Shown here: positions 1 to 6,195 of the stretch, in pieces
How the letters are laid out: every line of letters begins with the position of its first letter
How positions within the stretch are numbered: the first letter of the stretch is position 1
IMG/VR virus record: IMGVR_UViG_2728369186_000004
From: a virus
Taxonomy: Duplodnaviria > Heunggongvirae > Uroviricota > Caudoviricetes
Strand: one strand, 5' to 3'
Length of the DNA: 6,195 nt
Translations under genes and position numbers: made by a program
The notes under the pieces: model-generated
Databases searched by the model: none
The model's input: the letters and a program-made list of their open reading frames with translations, nothing else
Told to the model about the DNA's origin: nothing

Positions 1-93
1 TGTTCTGAGGTGAGCATATCACCTCTGTTCAGGTGGCCAAATTCAGTAAACCACTTCAGAACCTTATTTCATGCAAATGAGATCTACAATTAG
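1..93 (+). CDS. 3' end of an upstream gene (partial, unknown product); frame 1 open from window edge to TAG at 91-93
   Basis: Frame 1 has no stop from position 1 until TAG 91-93 (...CSEVSISPLFRWPNSVNHFRTLFHANEIYN*), overlapping the tail-fibre start by 23 nt. Only 30 codons visible, no motif recognised. Confidence 0.3.
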   Translation, partial: CSEVSISPLFRWPNSVNHFRTLFHANEIYN

Positions 94-3128: not shown

Positions 3129-3142
3129 CTCTAATAAATACA

Positions 3143-3169
3143 AGCGACCAATTTCGGTCGCTTTTTTAT
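3143..3169 (+). terminator. Rho-independent terminator between the 115-aa gene and the Zn-ribbon gene
   Basis: AGCGACC (3143-3149) / GGTCGCT (3156-3162), perfect 7-bp GC-rich stem, loop aatttc, followed by TTTTTATT (3163-3169). Confidence 0.7.
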
Positions 3170-3180
3170 TTGGAGGAATC

Positions 3181-4218
3181 ATGGAGATTTTATTTGCTGA
3201 ATATATCAACTACACCGGATTTACAAGAAAAACGCCTCTTGACTATGAACCTATTGCCATTAAACGTTGTGATGAGTTGGGGTACATCTATAACGGTTTT
3301 GTTGTGCCGTGGAAAGGGCAACATACACCCGTTTCTATAACCTGCAAGAAACATAGCACAACGCGAACAATTGCTTTCAAAACTCTTAAAAAACAAGGTG
3401 CGTGTCTTGAATGCTATAAAGAATCATTAAAACTTCCTAAGAAAAAGAATAGAGATAAGGAAGCTGTACTAGATAAAGCAAGCAATGTGCTGGAACGCAA
3501 AGATATGGTTTTAGTTGGATTGTTAGAAGATTATAAAGGATTAGACACAAAAGTTTCTTATAAGTGCAATTGCTGTGATACTGCATACGAAACCATAATC
3601 ACTAGAATCATAAACGATGATGCTGGGTGTCGTCATTGTGGGTCAATTAAGAGAGGAATCAATAAGAGAAAACACACAGACGACGAATGGATGGATCTAA
3701 TTGAGCATGAATGCAGGAACAAACGACTTGAATTAATAGAACAACCTAAATCTCCTATATTGTCAACATCAAAAATACACATCAAATGTGAAAAAGGTCA
3801 TCTTTCTGATTCTTTGGTAGTTTATGGTTTAGTGTATGAAAACTTAGGCTGTCCATGTTGTTCTAAAAATGGTTATAACAGAAGTAAGTCGGGAGTTTTC
3901 TACGTTCAACAGGTCGGAGATTATATAAAATATGGAATAACAAACCATCTAAACCCACAAAAGCGAGTAACTCAACAAGCTAGGGAATCAGGGTTAAAAC
4001 ACAAGTTATTGTGGTATATAACGTTCGGTGACGGAAAAGTTGCCAATGACCTAGAGTATTCCGTAAAACATAACATAGGAAATCACGCTGCACCAAAAGA
4101 ACTAATCCCAGACGGATATACAGAAACATGTGACATAACCAAAGAAGCGCAGATTAGAAAAATGGCAATGGATTTTTGTAAAAACTCCAACAACTATAAA
4201 ATTACATATAGGGGGTAA
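3181..4218 (+). CDS. Protein with three tandem ~74-aa zinc-ribbon repeats and a C-terminal GIY-YIG/T5orf172-like domain (345 aa); candidate homing-endonuclease-like or DNA-binding nuclease-family protein
   Basis: SD GGAGG (3172-3176), ATG 3181. Metal-ligand sets at exactly 74-residue spacing: C55-x2-H58...C75-x2-C78; C129-x-C131C132...C150-x2-C153; C203-x3-H207...C224-x-C226C227, with flanking similarity (WKGQHTPVSITC / YKGLDTKVSYKC). C-terminus has GVFYVQQVGDYIKYGIT (GIY...YIG-like paired motifs), an Arg ~10 residues later (PQKRVTQQ) and downstream Glu (LEYSVKH, GYTETCD). Stop TAA 4216-4218 is 1 nt before the next ATG. Function inferred from motif spacing only. Confidence 0.55.
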   Translation: MEILFAEYINYTGFTRKTPLDYEPIAIKRCDELGYIYNGFVVPWKGQHTPVSITCKKHSTTRTIAFKTLKKQGACLECYKESLKLPKKKNRDKEAVLDKASNVLERKDMVLVGLLEDYKGLDTKVSYKCNCCDTAYETIITRIINDDAGCRHCGSIKRGINKRKHTDDEWMDLIEHECRNKRLELIEQPKSPILSTSKIHIKCEKGHLSDSLVVYGLVYENLGCPCCSKNGYNRSKSGVFYVQQVGDYIKYGITNHLNPQKRVTQQARESGLKHKLLWYITFGDGKVANDLEYSVKHNIGNHAAPKELIPDGYTETCDITKEAQIRKMAMDFCKNSNNYKITYRG

Positions 4219-4219
4219 T

Positions 4220-4573
4220 ATGTTAAGTAAGCATTTTTCTCGCAAGGAATTTAAATGTAAATGCGGAAAATGTGATTATGATACAATCGACGCTGAATTA
4301 CTGGTGATTCTTGAGGATGTACGCGAACACTTTGGGAAACCAGTGATTATTAACAGCGGGAACCGTTGTCCGAATCATAATAAGAATGTTGGCGGTGCAA
4401 CCAATAGCTATCATGTTCGAGGCCGTGCGGCTGACATATCAGTGAAAGGAATTTCTCCTGATATTGTTCATGCTTATCTTGATGGGAAGTATCCTACTCA
4501 ATACGGCTTAGGAAAATATAAAACCTTTACGCATATTGATTCCAGATCAAAAAAATCACGGTGGAATGGATAA
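4220..4573 (+). CDS. Peptidase M15-family (zinc D-Ala-D-Ala carboxypeptidase-like) cell-wall hydrolase; probable endolysin (117 aa)
   Basis: ATG 4220 with GGGGG SD (4211-4215) inside the 3' end of the upstream gene. Motifs FSRKEF...SGNRCPNHNKNVGG...SYH-x6-D (H-VRGRAA-D) and C-terminal FTHID match the metal-binding signature of Peptidase_M15-type phage lysins. No signal peptide or TM segment. Confidence 0.75.
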   Translation: MLSKHFSRKEFKCKCGKCDYDTIDAELLVILEDVREHFGKPVIINSGNRCPNHNKNVGGATNSYHVRGRAADISVKGISPDIVHAYLDGKYPTQYGLGKYKTFTHIDSRSKKSRWNG

Positions 4574-4763
4574 AACAAAAGCGCCTCTGGTGGGCGCTTT
4601 TTTGTTAGAATATGCTGGCGACGTTAGCTATATTTCTGACCATTTTTTCATTATAGACAAATATACCGCAGACGATAAAGTCGTTTTTGACGAAGTAGAT
4701 CCGTCTCTGGTTGAAGTAATGAAAGAACCGGAAGACCTAGAGCTTGATTTAAGCCAATTATAG
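4566..4763 (+). CDS. Questionable small acidic ORF (65 aa from ATG 4566)
   Basis: Track ORF 4536-4763 overlaps the peptidase gene and reads through the terminator hairpin at 4577-4604. The only ATG (4566) has a poorly spaced SD. C-terminus highly acidic (DEVDPSLVEVMKEPEDLELDLSQL). Listed for completeness; probably not a real gene. Confidence 0.2.
   Translation: MDKTKAPLVGAFLLEYAGDVSYISDHFFIIDKYTADDKVVFDEVDPSLVEVMKEPEDLELDLSQL
4577..4604 (+). terminator. Rho-independent terminator after the peptidase gene
   Basis: aaaaGCGCC (4577-4585) / GGCGCtttt (4593-4601), loop tctggtg, then T-run to 4603; begins 4 nt after the TAA at 4571-4573. Confidence 0.55.
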
Positions 4764-4787
4764 ACTCTCTAACGCAATTAAATTAAA

Positions 4788-4809
4788 AAGGGGTACGGAT
4801 GTACCCCTT
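4788..4809 (-). terminator. Rho-independent terminator for the minus-strand recombinase/small-ORF transcript
   Basis: AAGGGGTAC (4788-4796) / GTACCCCTT (4801-4809), 9-bp stem, 4-nt loop. On the minus strand the stem is followed by TTTTTAATTT (complement of 4778-4787); on the plus strand only an A-tract precedes it. Confidence 0.6.
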
Positions 4810-4845
4810 AAAGCGTTTGGTTCGTTATACGGCGATTTAGGCCGC

Positions 4846-5103
4846 CTATGATTTATTTTCTTGTTCTATGAAAATCTTTCTCACCTCATCAGAATAAATG
4901 TCTAGTGATTCCTCATAACATTTTCTGTATTCACCGTAATTACTGGTGGTCTTTTGACATAGCAATTTCAATGTCTTATGTGCTCCATCAATGAAAGCAT
5001 CTTCTCTATAGGTTAGCGGTCTACGCATTTCTTGGTCTACGGTTGCCAATGCCAGGCAAGAATTCATAGATAAAATCAAACCTAAAATCTTAATCATCTT
5101 CAT
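4846..5103 (-). CDS. Small secreted protein (about 85 aa with predicted Sec signal peptide), unknown function
   Basis: Track ORF begins at a TTG (5118-5116); first ATG is at 5103-5101 (MKMIKILGLILSMNSCLALA|TVDQ...): basic n-region, hydrophobic core, ALA cleavage motif. Not a canonical lipobox (MNSC). Mature part ~65 aa with 2 Cys. Starts 5 nt after the recombinase stop, so co-transcribed. Confidence 0.5.
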   Translation of the reverse strand: MKMIKILGLILSMNSCLALATVDQEMRRPLTYREDAFIDGAHKTLKLLCQKTTSNYGEYRKCYEESLDIYSDEVRKIFIEQENKS

Positions 5104-5107
5104 TAGC

Positions 5108-6064
5108 TTAAATTCCAAATTCTTGTAATGGACCTGGTATTTCTTCTTCTGGTTTCCAGTTCTTATCTGTCAGCATGTCTAAACATGGATGCAGAACAAG
5201 CCCGTTACTCTCCAGAATCTGCCTATCATTGATAGTCTTCAAATCAACGAAGATCCGGCCTTTCCTCGGTCCTCTTGAATTTTCTATTACAACTCTCTGG
5301 GTCTTGCCATCGATGTATTCCAGTACAAACAAGTTTTTGTACTTGTCAATCCTGCTACACCCGATCCGTTTTAGAGCTTGCTTAATCTTAAACCGGACCT
5401 TAATGCGATCCTCGTTGTAAACATCTTCTAAATCAAATTCTGCGAGCTTCTCCCAGCCTTGAGAGTCAACAGAATACATTTCCTCTTCTGCCATCTTAAT
5501 TTGATTGTAGAGTGTTTCACGCTCGCTATTGAGGGTAGTAATCTGATCGGCTAGCTCCTTCGTTGCTCCTGTCATAGCAGAAAGGGTAATCAGGTTATCA
5601 ATCTTGCGTGATATTTCATCAATCTGTACTTTCAAAGCCGGAACCGGATTAGCCTTATCTTCAGCAATCCAGATTTTATCAGCCAGCAATTGCAATACAG
5701 CTTTCTCTAATTGGTCGCCGCGAAAACTCCAGTTTGTATGCACACATTCAATACGACTAGAGCGCATTGCATCGCATGAATAACGATATTGGTTAGGCCG
5801 TCTGTTTGTTCCTTTCACCTTAACCATAGCGGAACCGCAATGTTCACATTTCAATAGACCAACACCACTAAGCAAGGGAATAGGTTTAACTTCTTCTTTG
5901 TCTCCAAAGTTACATGCTCTAACACCAATGCTTTTCTTAAGGTGATAAAACTCAGCGTCATCTAGCACACGAGGATAATAATCCTTTAACTCATACTTAA
6001 CGCCATCTACAGAGATTTCCTTGATACCAATCAAAGCGCGGGTATGGAACAACCTTTCAATCAT
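5108..6064 (-). CDS. Large serine recombinase, C-terminal portion only (end of recombinase domain, zinc ribbon, coiled-coil); N-terminal catalytic domain not encoded in frame, so possibly truncated or a pseudogene
   Basis: Zinc-ribbon motif LLSGVGLLKCEHCGSAMVKVKG...YRYSCDAMRSSRIECVHTNWSFRGDQLEKAVLQLL (C73, C76, C97, C107), followed by a long predicted coiled-coil, typical of large serine recombinases. No resolvase-type catalytic domain precedes it. The frame stays open upstream of ATG 6064 to an in-frame TAG at 6167-6169, and that stretch (LNATYTPPPAASHKRHSNWSRA-MIERLFHTRALIG) still resembles the recombinase domain (W-x4-[VI]-x-R-[IL]...Y/L-x-G). Confidence 0.7.
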   Translation of the reverse strand: MIERLFHTRALIGIKEISVDGVKYELKDYYPRVLDDAEFYHLKKSIGVRACNFGDKEEVKPIPLLSGVGLLKCEHCGSAMVKVKGTNRRPNQYRYSCDAMRSSRIECVHTNWSFRGDQLEKAVLQLLADKIWIAEDKANPVPALKVQIDEISRKIDNLITLSAMTGATKELADQITTLNSERETLYNQIKMAEEEMYSVDSQGWEKLAEFDLEDVYNEDRIKVRFKIKQALKRIGCSRIDKYKNLFVLEYIDGKTQRVVIENSRGPRKGRIFVDLKTINDRQILESNGLVLHPCLDMLTDKNWKPEEEIPGPLQEFGI

Positions 6065-6195
6065 TGCCCGTGACCAGTTTGAATGCCTCTTGTGACTTGC
6101 GGCTGGTGGTGGTGTGTATGTCGCGTTAAGGTGATCTGATCCTACCCACGTAATATGGACACAGGCCTAAGCGAGGTTCTTGTTTTCAAATTGTT

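What the first reader, a model, noticed from the sequence alone, without database searches (positions are those of the whole stretch)
4574..4845. Convergent intergenic region between the accessory block and the recombinase operon
About 270 bp lie between a plus-strand terminator (4577-4604) and a minus-strand terminator (4788-4809), with no convincingly expressed gene (the acidic ORF reads through a terminator). In temperate phages, the region beside the integrase gene is where the attachment site and recombinase-binding repeats usually sit. I could not identify an att-type imperfect inverted repeat by eye.
Basis: inference. Interest (0 to 1): 0.35.

Follow-up and report, generated by a model that had tools for sequence, protein, structure and literature searches.

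The report
Gene-remnant spacer between two prophage terminators
The 270-bp gap between the prophage's lysis gene and its integrase gene is not the phage attachment site; it holds two conserved transcription terminators around a patchwork of leftover gene fragments, one from a T4-like phage gene, so it is largely ordinary.

Summary
4574-4845 is a convergent, gene-free spacer with a hairpin terminator at each end: T1 at 4577-4607 and T2 at 4788-4809. Both fold far better than shuffles and are kept in about 33-36 of 37 related loci.

The att idea fails. In an intact relative (E. coli 266917_2) the prophage splits hicB at a 7-bp core, TTGGCAA. That core lies about 1.5 kb beyond the START of the recombinase gene, about 3.2 kb from this spacer. 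A rebuilt attP has no match in the window.

The spacer is the collapsed state of a variable cargo bay. In relatives the distance between the endolysin and recombinase stop codons ranges from 152 bp to 4.35 kb. The cargo there is CapR/T5orf172 homing-endonuclease-like genes, a UvsW-type helicase, and fragments of T4-like inh and hoc.

The window's 65-codon "acidic ORF" is a chimera of scars:
- the terminator;
- the antisense tail of one endonuclease gene (4605-4661);
- 23 codons of Krischvirus inh (4663-4733);
- the last codons of a second endonuclease gene (4727-4763).

The ORF is an orphan, lacks a usable ribosome-binding site, is broken in sibling prophages, and shows neutral-looking change.

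Verdict: an ordinary decayed intergenic region. The mildly interesting side-note is traffic between a T4-like phage and a temperate prophage.

The parts
4220..4573 (+). M15 (D-Ala-D-Ala carboxypeptidase type) endolysin gene, the last gene of the plus-strand late/lysis block (context).
   Evidence: Pfam Peptidase_M15_3, 3.5e-28. PHROG endolysin, 6e-46. Present in all relatives.
4577..4607 (.). T1, an intrinsic terminator hairpin (stem GCGCC/GGCGC extended by A/T pairs, 7-nt loop, T-run). It ends the late operon. In relatives it also sits directly behind convergent minus-strand cargo genes, so it is probably bidirectional.
   Evidence: Folds at -14.7 kcal/mol on + and -13.3 on -, z -3.1 and -4.3. 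The stem GCGCC-N7-GGCGC is present in 36 of 37 loci, with changes in the loop and just outside the stem (TCTGGTG, TCTAGTG, TCCAGTG, TCACATG, TCACAAG). The 3' half is deleted only in L009.
4566..4763 (+). The 65-codon 'acidic ORF'. It is a chimeric reading frame that runs through T1 and three gene remnants, and is most likely a non-functional pseudo-ORF.
   Evidence: Only 9 database hits, all E. coli fragments of 46-113 aa. No Pfam, PHROG or PADLOC match. Broken by a 5-bp deletion in L007 and L014, and frameshifted in L008 and L031. Within the window-type loci there are 3 nonsynonymous changes to 1 synonymous. The ATG is embedded in the endolysin's last codons, and the nearest SD-like GGTGGA ends right at the ATG.
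4605..4661 (-). Remnant of the stop codon plus the last 18 codons of a 193-aa CapR/T5orf172 homing-endonuclease-like gene that is intact in relatives L005, L010, L021 and L022.
   Evidence: Window 4514-4661 is 97-99% identical in DNA to L005 and L010, where this stretch is the 3' end of the minus-strand gene. tblastn gives 18 of 18 residues (176-193). That gene matches Pfam CapR + T5orf172 and phrog_681 endonuclease.
4663..4733 (+). A 23-codon internal fragment (codons ~84-106) of the T4-like phage (Krischvirus) gene inh, the inhibitor of the prohead protease. It supplies the acidic middle of the ORF.
   Evidence: About 90% nt identity to inh in 59 Krischvirus records, E 4e-18. 88% nt and 22 of 23 aa to ECD7 inh. 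Across relatives the variable sites fall 11 at codon position 3, 2 at position 2 and 0 at position 1, so the fragment comes from a gene that was under purifying selection in this frame.
4727..4763 (+). Remnant of the last ~10 codons of a 332-aa endonuclease-like gene ('Y', phrog_681) that is intact in relatives. It is fused in frame to the inh fragment at the microhomology GAACCGGAAGA (4725-4735).
   Evidence: Window 4727-4845 aligns to the 3' end of Y plus its downstream flank in L005, L006, L008 and L010 at 85-88%. Y ends ...PEDLELDLSPLEAL* and the window ORF ends ...PEDLELDLSQL*. Junction sequences are shown.
4582..4591 (+). Direct repeat CGCCTCTGGT. Together with 4702-4711 (CGTCTCTGGT) it marks the endpoints of a further 120-bp in-frame deletion seen in relative L009.
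   Evidence: Repeat family D17. The L009 spacer joins exactly at this repeat and loses the 3' half of T1.
4764..4845 (-). 3' flank of the recombinase transcription unit. In every relative without the ORF90 insertion it abuts the recombinase stop codon directly.
   Evidence: window 4761/4727-4845 is followed immediately by the equivalent of window 5106 in L004-L006, L008-L010 and L040.
4788..4809 (-). T2, the intrinsic terminator of the recombinase (+ORF90) unit. Stem GGGGTAC/GTACCCC (4790-4796 / 4801-4807), 4-nt loop, T-run on the minus strand.
   Evidence: -14.5 kcal/mol, z -3.9. A perfect 7-bp stem is found in 33 of 37 loci, and the other 4 carry a single indel. There are five loop variants (GGAT, GAAT, AGAT, AAAT, ATCT), and the flanks vary at 21 of 30 and 14 of 38 columns.
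4846..5105 (-). A 260-bp insertion carrying an orphan 85-aa ORF with a signal-peptide-like N-terminus (ATG 5103, stop 4846-4848). It is wedged between the recombinase stop and its 3' flank, is found only in window-type prophages, and bounds the finding on the right.
   Evidence: Absent from all other spacer types. In 1.84 billion representatives there is one cluster (its own) plus 5 weak multi-stretch hits to long proteins that I read as spurious. No Pfam, PHROG or PADLOC hit. PGAP does not annotate it.
5108..6136 (-). Large serine recombinase gene, residues 218-559 only. The catalytic N-terminus is cut off by an IS3 end at 6137.
   Evidence: 100% identical to residues 218-559 of the 559-aa recombinase of L002. 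The full-length protein has Resolvase + Recombinase + Zn_ribbon_recom domains and matches phrog_95 integrase. IS3 end.

Best explanation
Window 4574-4845 is the collapsed remains of a variable cargo bay between the last late gene (endolysin) and the serine-integrase gene of an uncharacterised E. coli prophage family.

Two elements in it are maintained and most likely functional. T1 stops plus-strand late transcription after the endolysin gene. T2 stops minus-strand transcription of the recombinase unit. Together they keep the two convergent units from running into each other. This role is inferred from structure and conservation; it has not been measured.

Everything between the hairpins is debris from gene gain and loss. 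Relatives carry, between the same two hairpins, CapR/T5orf172 homing-endonuclease-like genes together with pieces of a T4-like phage genome (uvsW, inh, hoc). In the window's lineage two microhomology-mediated deletions removed almost all of this. What is left is the 3' tail of one endonuclease gene (antisense), 23 codons of inh, and the last ~10 codons of a second endonuclease gene. These pieces happen to lie in one frame with an ATG buried in the endolysin stop region, and that frame is the 65-codon acidic ORF.

The spacer is not the attachment site. attP lies about 1.5 kb upstream of the recombinase start, a part of the prophage that an IS3 insertion has removed from this window.
For: Shown directly:
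1. att mapping. The prophage in E. coli 266917_2 splits hicB. attB, attL and attR share only TTGGCAA, and the junctions are at record positions ~237197 and ~271949, while the recombinase occupies 268728-270407 and the spacer ~268190-268720. Other relatives sit in ycdX with the same spacer flanks.
2. Variable bay. Across 37 loci the distance from endolysin stop to recombinase stop takes values of 152, 528-534, ~1470-1545, 1799, 2069-2214, ~3493-3532, 3824 and 4353 bp. Homology breakpoints with the window fall at 4591, 4607, 4661, 4733 and 4727/4761.
3. Piece-by-piece identification of the remnants.
4. Direction of change. The shared tails are the in-frame ends of long intact ORFs in relatives, including the diverged ycdX-type prophage L040, which has the full cassette. 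Deletion is therefore more parsimonious than insertion.
5. The ORF from the overlapped ATG exists in every locus but ends after 15-147 codons, depending only on what lies downstream. That includes 27-46 codons read antisense into helicase or endonuclease genes.
6. Orphan status and decay of the acidic ORF.
7. Hairpin stability and conservation, with variable loops and flanks.

Inferred: that the hairpins actually terminate transcription, and that the ORF is not expressed.
Against: No expression data exist, so read-through of T1 and termination-reinitiation translation of the acidic ORF cannot be excluded. The ATGGATAA overlap would suit translational coupling.

The ORF is intact in 9 of 11 window-type loci, and both deletions, plus the third one in L009, preserved the reading frame. 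That is somewhat more than expected if the frame were irrelevant.

No compensatory base changes were seen in either stem (they are invariant). Conservation of the hairpins is therefore consistent with selection on structure but does not prove it. The 33 of 37 figure for T2 counts perfect stems only.

The order of the deletion events is inferred by parsimony, not from a rooted phylogeny.
Confidence: 0.8

Rival explanations
1. One reading: the spacer next to the recombinase gene holds attP or recombinase-binding arm sites.
For: Only the general rule that att often lies beside int. In lambda, attP lies just downstream of int (my own knowledge). Nothing from the tools supports it here.
Against: Prophage/host junctions map inside hicB (core TTGGCAA) or ycdX, on the other side of the recombinase gene and about 1.5 kb from its start. 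The reconstructed attP has no match above chance in the window. The spacer varies from 152 bp to 4.35 kb among prophages that share the same integration site. Large serine integrases use short simple att sites without arm-type repeats (established knowledge).
Confidence: 0.02
2. The 65-aa acidic ORF is a real small protein, translationally coupled to the endolysin. Candidates would be an Inh-derived protease inhibitor fragment or an acidic anti-defence or DNA-mimic protein.
For: The ATG overlaps the endolysin stop (ATGGATAA). PGAP annotates the ORF in E275a and 266917_2. It is intact in 9 of 11 window-type loci, and three independent deletions kept the frame. The middle third derives from a genuine coding sequence.
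Against: It reads through a strong terminator. There is no correctly spaced SD. It has only 9 near-identical or fragmentary hits among 5.8 billion clusters. It is frameshifted or truncated in L007, L014, L008, L031 and in database variants P0004-P0006. Changes among window-type copies run 3 nonsynonymous to 1 synonymous. Its N-terminal third is the antisense of another gene's tail. It keeps only 23 of the 241 Inh codons.
Confidence: 0.07
3. The spacer encodes a small regulatory RNA, or acts through antisense or convergent transcription. For example, late read-through transcripts could silence the integrase, or T2 could act as a lambda sib-like retroregulator.
For: Stable hairpins and a conserved ~80-nt 3' flank of the recombinase gene. 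One promoter-like match at 4654-4681.
Against: No Rfam family is matched; the only hit is PK-repZ at 20.7 bits against a gathering score of 44, E 0.34, and it lies mostly inside the endolysin gene. Promoter-like sites occur at chance frequency, 14 found against 15.1 +/- 4.1 expected. Outside the T2 stem the flank is the more variable part. No plus-strand terminator follows the candidate promoter.
Confidence: 0.05
4. The interval between the hairpins is an active landing pad. Prophage-borne CapR/T5orf172 nucleases and homology to T4-like phages drive repeated cassette exchange here, and the window shows the 'empty' allele. This overlaps with the best explanation rather than excluding it.
For: There are at least eight spacer architectures with breakpoints hugging T1 and T2. 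The inh fragment is 99% identical in DNA to Krischvirus in L010 but about 82-90% in other alleles. HEG-like genes flank the fragments. Published work shows T5orf172/CapR HEGs sitting at boundaries of genetic exchange between phages (PMC10448857).
Against: No nuclease activity or target site has been shown. The HEG-like genes have only 24-35% identical relatives in sequenced phages. The pattern could equally come from one old capture followed by ordinary decay and homologous recombination between prophages.
Confidence: 0.15

Closest known systems
Rho-independent (intrinsic) terminators at convergent gene ends, including bidirectional ones
   Same: A GC-rich stem-loop followed by a U-run. T1 has an A-run and a T-run on either side and sits between convergent genes in relatives. 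T2 follows the recombinase unit.
   Different: Nothing unusual. Termination has not been measured here.
Lambda int-tI/sib-attP region (my own knowledge)
   Same: A hairpin terminator directly downstream of the integrase gene.
   Different: In lambda, attP lies immediately beyond it, so the prophage state separates sib from int. Here attP is on the opposite, upstream side of the recombinase gene, and the enzyme is a large serine recombinase, not a tyrosine integrase.
Free-standing T5orf172/CapR-domain homing endonuclease genes at mosaic boundaries of phage genomes (Barth, Dunham & Seed 2023, PMC10448857; CapR: Netter et al. 2021, PMC8096241)
   Same: The cargo genes of the bay, and the window's own ORF345 at 3181-4218, match Pfam CapR and T5orf172/MUG113 and phrog_681 endonuclease. 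They sit exactly at homology breakpoints.
   Different: That paper does not use the words 'prophage' or 'temperate', whereas this case is a temperate prophage. In the finding's interval only two short 3' tails of such genes survive. No activity was tested.
T4-like (Krischvirus) uvsW-inh-hoc region
   Same: Window 4663-4733 is ~90% identical to inh. Relatives carry a 415-nt inh fragment (99%), a full-length UvsW homologue (80.6% aa) and a hoc-like fragment, in the same order and orientation as in phage ECD7.
   Different: The window keeps only 23 of the 241 inh codons, fused to unrelated sequence. It cannot be a functional Inh.
Prophage 'moron' or accessory-gene hotspots next to lysis and integration modules
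   Same: Variable cargo bracketed by conserved terminators at the end of the late operon.
   Different: The cargo here is selfish nuclease genes and virulent-phage gene fragments rather than lysogenic-conversion genes. The window shows the emptied state.

Membership tests
Phage attachment site (attP, or attL/attR) of a serine integrase | Lies at the prophage/host junction in lysogens | tested here: not met
   Junctions lie in hicB (266917_2, E275a, BS74R-D, ETEC1717) or ycdX (ETEC1703, ETEC4090, STEC1575), 1.3-1.6 kb beyond the recombinase start. None lies in the endolysin/recombinase spacer.
Phage attachment site (attP, or attL/attR) of a serine integrase | Shares a short identical core with attB | tested here: not met
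   The core TTGGCAA was defined from K-12 attB against attL and attR. A 120-bp reconstructed attP gives only exact matches of 10 bp or less in the window, E >= 0.5, none meaningful in 4574-4845.
Phage attachment site (attP, or attL/attR) of a serine integrase | Imperfect inverted repeat around a central crossover dinucleotide | tested here: not met
   The inverted repeats in 4574-4845 are the two terminator hairpins and one 71%-complementary 28-nt pair separated by 63 nt.
Intrinsic (Rho-independent) terminator | Stable GC-rich hairpin immediately followed by a U-run on the transcribed strand | tested here: met
   T1 on +: -14.7 kcal/mol, followed by UUUUUUGUU. T2 on -: -14.5 kcal/mol, followed by UUUUUAAUUU. 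z-scores -3.1 to -4.3.
Intrinsic (Rho-independent) terminator | Structure conserved among relatives while the sequence around it drifts | tested here: met
   T1 stem in 36 of 37 loci. T2 perfect stem in 33 of 37 loci, with 5 loop variants and variable flanks. No compensatory pairs were seen, so the support is conservation, not covariation.
Intrinsic (Rho-independent) terminator | Transcripts end there in vivo | not testable with these tools
   Needs term-seq or 3' RACE on a lysogen.
Functional protein-coding gene (the acidic ORF) | Homologues conserved beyond near-identical copies, with the reading frame kept intact | tested here: not met
   9 hits, all E. coli, of 46-113 aa with different ends. 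Frame broken in L007, L014, L008 and L031.
Functional protein-coding gene (the acidic ORF) | Substitution pattern of purifying selection over the whole ORF | tested here: inconclusive
   Only the 23-codon inh-derived piece shows third-position bias (11:2:0), and that is inherited from inh. Within window-type copies the count is 3 nonsynonymous to 1 synonymous, too few to be decisive.
Functional protein-coding gene (the acidic ORF) | Translation signals (an SD 5-9 nt upstream of the start, no terminator inside the 5' end) | tested here: not met
   GGTGGA ends at the ATG, and T1 occupies codons 4-14.
Inh (T4-type inhibitor of prohead protease; phrog_1051, PF26097/PF26098) | Full-length ~241-aa protein with both family domains | tested here: not met
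   The window retains codons ~84-106 only. The acidic ORF itself hits no PHROG or Pfam model.
Known RNA family (Rfam) | Covariance-model score at or above the family's gathering threshold | tested here: not met
   The only hit is PK-repZ at 20.7 bits against 44, E 0.34, at 4447-4578.
T5orf172/CapR homing endonuclease gene | Intact nuclease domain plus Zn-finger DNA-binding domain | tested here: not met
   Inside 4574-4845 only 18 and ~10 terminal codons of two such genes remain. Intact members lie elsewhere: window 3181-4218, and in relatives.

The most novel reading that the evidence does not exclude
The bay between T1 and T2 may be an exchange interface between this temperate prophage family and virulent T4-like (Krischvirus) phages. 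Prophage-borne CapR/T5orf172 nucleases, flanked by uvsW/inh/hoc homology, would either cut infecting T4-like genomes (a prophage-encoded, homology-armed defence) or use the prophage as a reservoir from which the nuclease genes home into those phages. On this reading the window's spacer is the burnt-out allele of that locus, keeping only a 71-bp inh scar.
Probability: 0.15. Interest if true: 0.6.

Novelty: new member of a known kind. Interest (0 to 1): 0.2.

Why it matters
For annotating this window, three points follow. The spacer should not be called att. The 65-aa "hypothetical protein" that PGAP annotates in relatives is best treated as a pseudo-ORF. The two hairpins are the only elements there worth keeping as features.

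More broadly, the comparison uncovers an uncharacterised family of prophages of about 35 kb in E. coli. They integrate into hicB or ycdX through a large serine recombinase. Their lysis/integrase junction is a hotspot where homing-endonuclease-like genes and near-identical pieces of virulent T4-like phage genes come and go. That is a small but concrete example of DNA flow from virulent into temperate phages. It could be tested experimentally for nuclease-mediated phage-phage competition. The finding's own 272 bp, however, contributes only scars to that story.

Tried and rejected
- Whole-window megablast against GenBank phages matched only the IS ends. Plasmids gave no match.
- An exact-match scan of GTDB representative genomes for the IS911/phage junction found nothing. 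The recombinase had no relative in those genomes. The source organism of the window stays unidentified; the best E. coli matches are 96-97% identical overall.
- Rfam at a permissive E-value gave only a sub-threshold PK-repZ hit.
- Pfam, PHROGs and PADLOC gave nothing for the acidic ORF or ORF90.
- An all-representatives HMMER search with ORF90 found only its own cluster plus 5 weak multi-stretch hits to long proteins that I read as spurious.
- The promoter scan was at chance level, so no sRNA promoter is claimed.
- A tblastn extension of the endonuclease tail to 4694 (33 aa, 67%) was judged a chance extension beyond the true 18-codon remnant, because DNA homology stops at 4661.
- PADLOC on the relatives' helicase gave weak generic helicase hits (PbeA, HamB). 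These are explained by its being a UvsW homologue, so it is not called a defence system.
- A literature search for a hicB-integrating serine-recombinase prophage found nothing relevant.
- The isolated phages closest to the recombinase are only ~30% identical.
Full report
**Setting**

The window is a 6.1-kb piece of a prophage, truncated at both ends by insertion sequences. Bases 1-58 are an IS911-like end and 6137-6195 are an IS3 end.

Between the two IS ends lie, on the plus strand:
- the C-terminal 469 codons of a lambda-J-type tail-tip gene;
- several small ORFs;
- a 345-aa CapR/T5orf172-type endonuclease-like gene (3181-4218);
- an M15 endolysin gene (4220-4573).

On the minus strand lie an 85-aa orphan ORF (4846-5103) and residues 218-559 of a large serine recombinase (5108-6136).

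Related prophages occur in 54 of 5426 complete E. coli genomes and in 28 IMG/VR contigs. No isolated phage is close: the best recombinase match is 30% identical.

**Check of the observation**

Both hairpins exist at the stated coordinates.
- T1 (4577-4607) folds at -14.7 kcal/mol on the + strand and -13.3 on the - strand.
- T2 (4809-4788, minus strand) folds at -14.5 kcal/mol.
- All three folds have z-scores of -3.1 to -4.3 against dinucleotide shuffles.

The consensus scanner reports T2 and, for T1, only the minus orientation. On the plus strand the T-run of T1 is counted into the stem. Read directly, the sequence is GCGCC-N7-GGCGC followed by TTTTTTGTT.

The 272 bp is the gene-free interval; the hairpins are 183 bp apart. 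The only ORF in it is the acidic one, and it does run through T1.

**Where the attachment site really is**

In E. coli 266917_2 the prophage is intact, about 34.7 kb long, and interrupts hicB. The 5' part of hicB lies at the left end and the 3' part at the right end.

Aligning both junctions with the uninterrupted K-12 hicB shows that attB, attL and attR share only TTGGCAA. The right junction lies about 1.5 kb beyond the start codon of the recombinase gene, with three small genes in between. That is about 3.2 kb from the spacer under study.

Other relatives sit in hicB in the same way, or in ycdX. They all carry the same T1 and T2 flanks. A 120-bp reconstructed attP has no match above chance in the window.

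In this window the att-proximal DNA is missing altogether, because IS3 cuts the recombinase gene at 6136.

**What the spacer is**

I compared 37 loci (the window, ten E. coli loci and 26 IMG/VR loci). The distance between the endolysin stop and the recombinase stop takes at least eight values:

| Spacer length | Example loci | Content |
|---|---|---|
| 152 bp | ETEC4090 (L009) | minimal, doubly deleted |
| 528-534 bp | window type | remnants plus ORF90 |
| ~1.47-1.55 kb | PE15 (L006) type | acidic gene X, then a 332-aa endonuclease-like gene Y |
| 1.8 kb | L020, L029, L037 | helicase plus a truncated 185-aa gene |
| 2.07-2.21 kb | L005, L010 | minus-strand 193-aa endonuclease-like gene, X', Y |
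| ~3.5 kb | ETEC1703 (L004) type | minus-strand helicase plus 185-aa gene, plus-strand 391-aa endonuclease-like gene |
| 3.8 and 4.35 kb | L019, L033 | larger helicase-containing variants |

Homology with the window breaks at 4591, 4607, 4661, 4733 and 4727/4761. These breakpoints hug the two hairpins or fall inside the acidic ORF.

The endonuclease-like genes match Pfam CapR and T5orf172/MUG113 and phrog_681. This is the architecture described for free-standing homing endonuclease genes that sit at boundaries of exchange between phages (PMC10448857).

**Dissection of 4574-4845**

1. *T1 (4577-4607).*
2. *Endonuclease tail (4605-4661).* On the minus strand this is the stop codon and last 18 codons of the 193-aa endonuclease-like gene. 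It is 97-99% identical in DNA to L005 and L010, where the gene is intact.
3. *inh fragment (4663-4733).* This is ~90% identical to the inh gene (inhibitor of prohead protease) of 59 Krischvirus (T4-like) phages, and it is the only part of the interval that matches any sequenced phage. It corresponds to codons ~84-106 of ECD7 inh. Among relatives its variable sites fall 11:2:0 at codon positions 3:2:1, the footprint of the real gene it came from.
4. *Tail of Y (4727-4763).* These are the last ~10 codons of gene Y...PEDLELDLSPLEAL* in Y...PEDLELDLSQL* here. The join to the inh piece is at the microhomology GAACCGGAAGA.
5. *Recombinase 3' flank with T2 (4764-4845).* In every relative that lacks ORF90 this flank abuts the recombinase stop codon.

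ORF90 (4846-5105) is a 260-bp insertion peculiar to the window type.

A further 120-bp deletion between the 10-bp direct repeats at 4582 and 4702 produced the 152-bp spacer of ETEC4090 and removed half of T1.

The shared tails are in-frame ends of long intact ORFs in relatives. The full cassette is also present in the diverged ycdX-type prophage of STEC1575. The short window-type spacer is therefore best read as a deletion derivative.

**The acidic ORF**

An ORF starting at the ATG inside the endolysin's last codons (AATGGATAA) exists in every locus. It ends after 15-147 codons according to whatever lies downstream. In helicase- or endonuclease-bearing loci it simply runs antisense into those genes for 27-46 codons.

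The window version has these properties:
- It finds only nine near-identical or fragmentary E. coli proteins of 46-113 aa among 5.8 billion clusters.
- It hits no Pfam, PHROG or PADLOC model.
- It is truncated by a 5-bp deletion in two of eleven window-type loci, and frameshifted at the T-run in others.
- It shows 3 nonsynonymous and 1 synonymous singleton changes among window-type copies.
- It has no properly spaced Shine-Dalgarno sequence, and a terminator occupies its codons 4-14.

I therefore treat it as a pseudo-ORF. A caveat: the frame has survived three deletions and translational coupling is conceivable, so I give the small-protein rival 7%.

**The hairpins**

- The T1 stem is present in 36 of 37 loci, with changes confined to the loop and the bases just outside the stem.
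- T2 has a perfect 7-bp stem in 33 of 37 loci; the other four have a single indel.
- T2 has five different loops, while the surrounding columns vary at 21 of 30 (5' side) and 14 of 38 (3' side).
- Even the prophage whose endolysin is only ~77% identical in protein keeps a hairpin of the same stem.
- No compensatory changes exist, so this is conservation, not covariation.
- T1 directly follows convergent minus-strand cargo genes in relatives, and it has an A-run on one side and a T-run on the other, so it probably works in both directions.

The most likely working role is plain. T1 ends the late operon and T2 ends the recombinase unit, and together they insulate two convergent units. This is inferred; no transcript data are available.

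**Side finding that raises the interest slightly**

The cargo of the bay in relatives is partly T4-like phage DNA:
- a 415-nt inh fragment 99% identical to Krischvirus ECD7;
- a full-length UvsW homologue, with the Pfam UvsW_N domain and 80.6% aa identity to ECD7 UvsW;
- a hoc-like fragment.

These lie in the same order and orientation as uvsW, inh and hoc in ECD7. They are interleaved with CapR/T5orf172 genes whose closest relatives in sequenced phages are only 24-35% identical.

This points to recent and probably repeated exchange between virulent T4-like phages and this temperate prophage at a nuclease-gene hotspot. Whether the nucleases drive the exchange, or defend the lysogen, is untested. 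I give that reading about 15%.

**Comparison with known things and verdict**

The interval fails every tested defining feature of an att site. It meets the sequence-level features of two intrinsic terminators. It fails the tests for a conserved protein gene and for any Rfam family.

It resembles the terminator-bounded accessory hotspots common in prophages, and the HEG-marked mosaic junctions described for virulent phages.

It is a new instance of known kinds of feature, in a decayed state. Interest is low (0.2). Confidence in the explanation is about 0.8.

Noticed in passing
relatives L010:5714-6128, L004:7086-8576, L040:2588-2992 (window equivalent 4663-4733): The cargo bay of this temperate prophage family carries T4-like (Krischvirus) DNA: a 415-nt inh fragment 99% identical to phage ECD7, a full-length UvsW homologue (80.6% aa) and a hoc-like fragment. 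They lie in the ECD7 order uvsW<- ->inh ->hoc and are interleaved with CapR/T5orf172 endonuclease-like genes.
   Followed up: partly
window 3129-4219 (ORF 3181-4218, +): A 345-aa CapR/T5orf172-type (phrog_681, 8.8e-43) homing-endonuclease-like gene is inserted between the 115-aa ORF and the endolysin gene. It is absent at this position in most relatives (L002, L004-L008, L010) and present in L001 and L009.
   Followed up: partly
window 4846-5105 (-): A 260-bp insertion carries an orphan 85-aa ORF with a signal-peptide-like N-terminus. It starts 4 nt after the recombinase stop and ends exactly at the insertion boundary. It is seen only in window-type prophages, PGAP does not annotate it, and it has no family match.
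   Followed up: partly
window 4797-4800 and the equivalent loop in 33 related loci: The 4-nt loop of T2 occurs as GGAT, GAAT, AGAT, AAAT and ATCT. ATCT is the reverse complement of AGAT, as expected from inversion of a perfect-palindrome hairpin by template switching.
   Followed up: no
window 1-58 and 6137-6195: The phage DNA is bounded by an IS911-like end (93.7% to IS911 in Sf6; 100% to copies elsewhere) and an IS3 end. The tail-tip gene and the recombinase gene are both truncated, so this is a dead prophage remnant, possibly an IS-bounded composite segment.
   Followed up: partly
L002:20589-22268 versus L004, L009 and L040 recombinases (window 5108-6136 is the hicB type): Recombinases of hicB-integrated and ycdX-integrated relatives are ~92% identical. 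They differ at 31 diagnostic residues, 26 of them within residues 176-351 (recombinase and zinc-ribbon DNA-binding domains). This is a compact natural att-specificity switch.
   Followed up: partly
L003:22190-22210 / L002:23800-23815 / L011 (K-12 hicB) ~2807-2813: This ~35-kb prophage family integrates inside the antitoxin gene hicB at the core TTGGCAA, leaving hicA intact and hicB split. No close isolated phage is known; the best recombinase identity is 30%.
   Followed up: partly
window 4644-4649 (T-run) and database variants P0004, P0006; L008, L031: Single-base length changes in the T-run shift the frame of the acidic ORF in several relatives. Gene callers then pick alternative starts (MLATLAIFL..., MKEPE...), which produces a scatter of inconsistent 'hypothetical protein' annotations.
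   Followed up: yes
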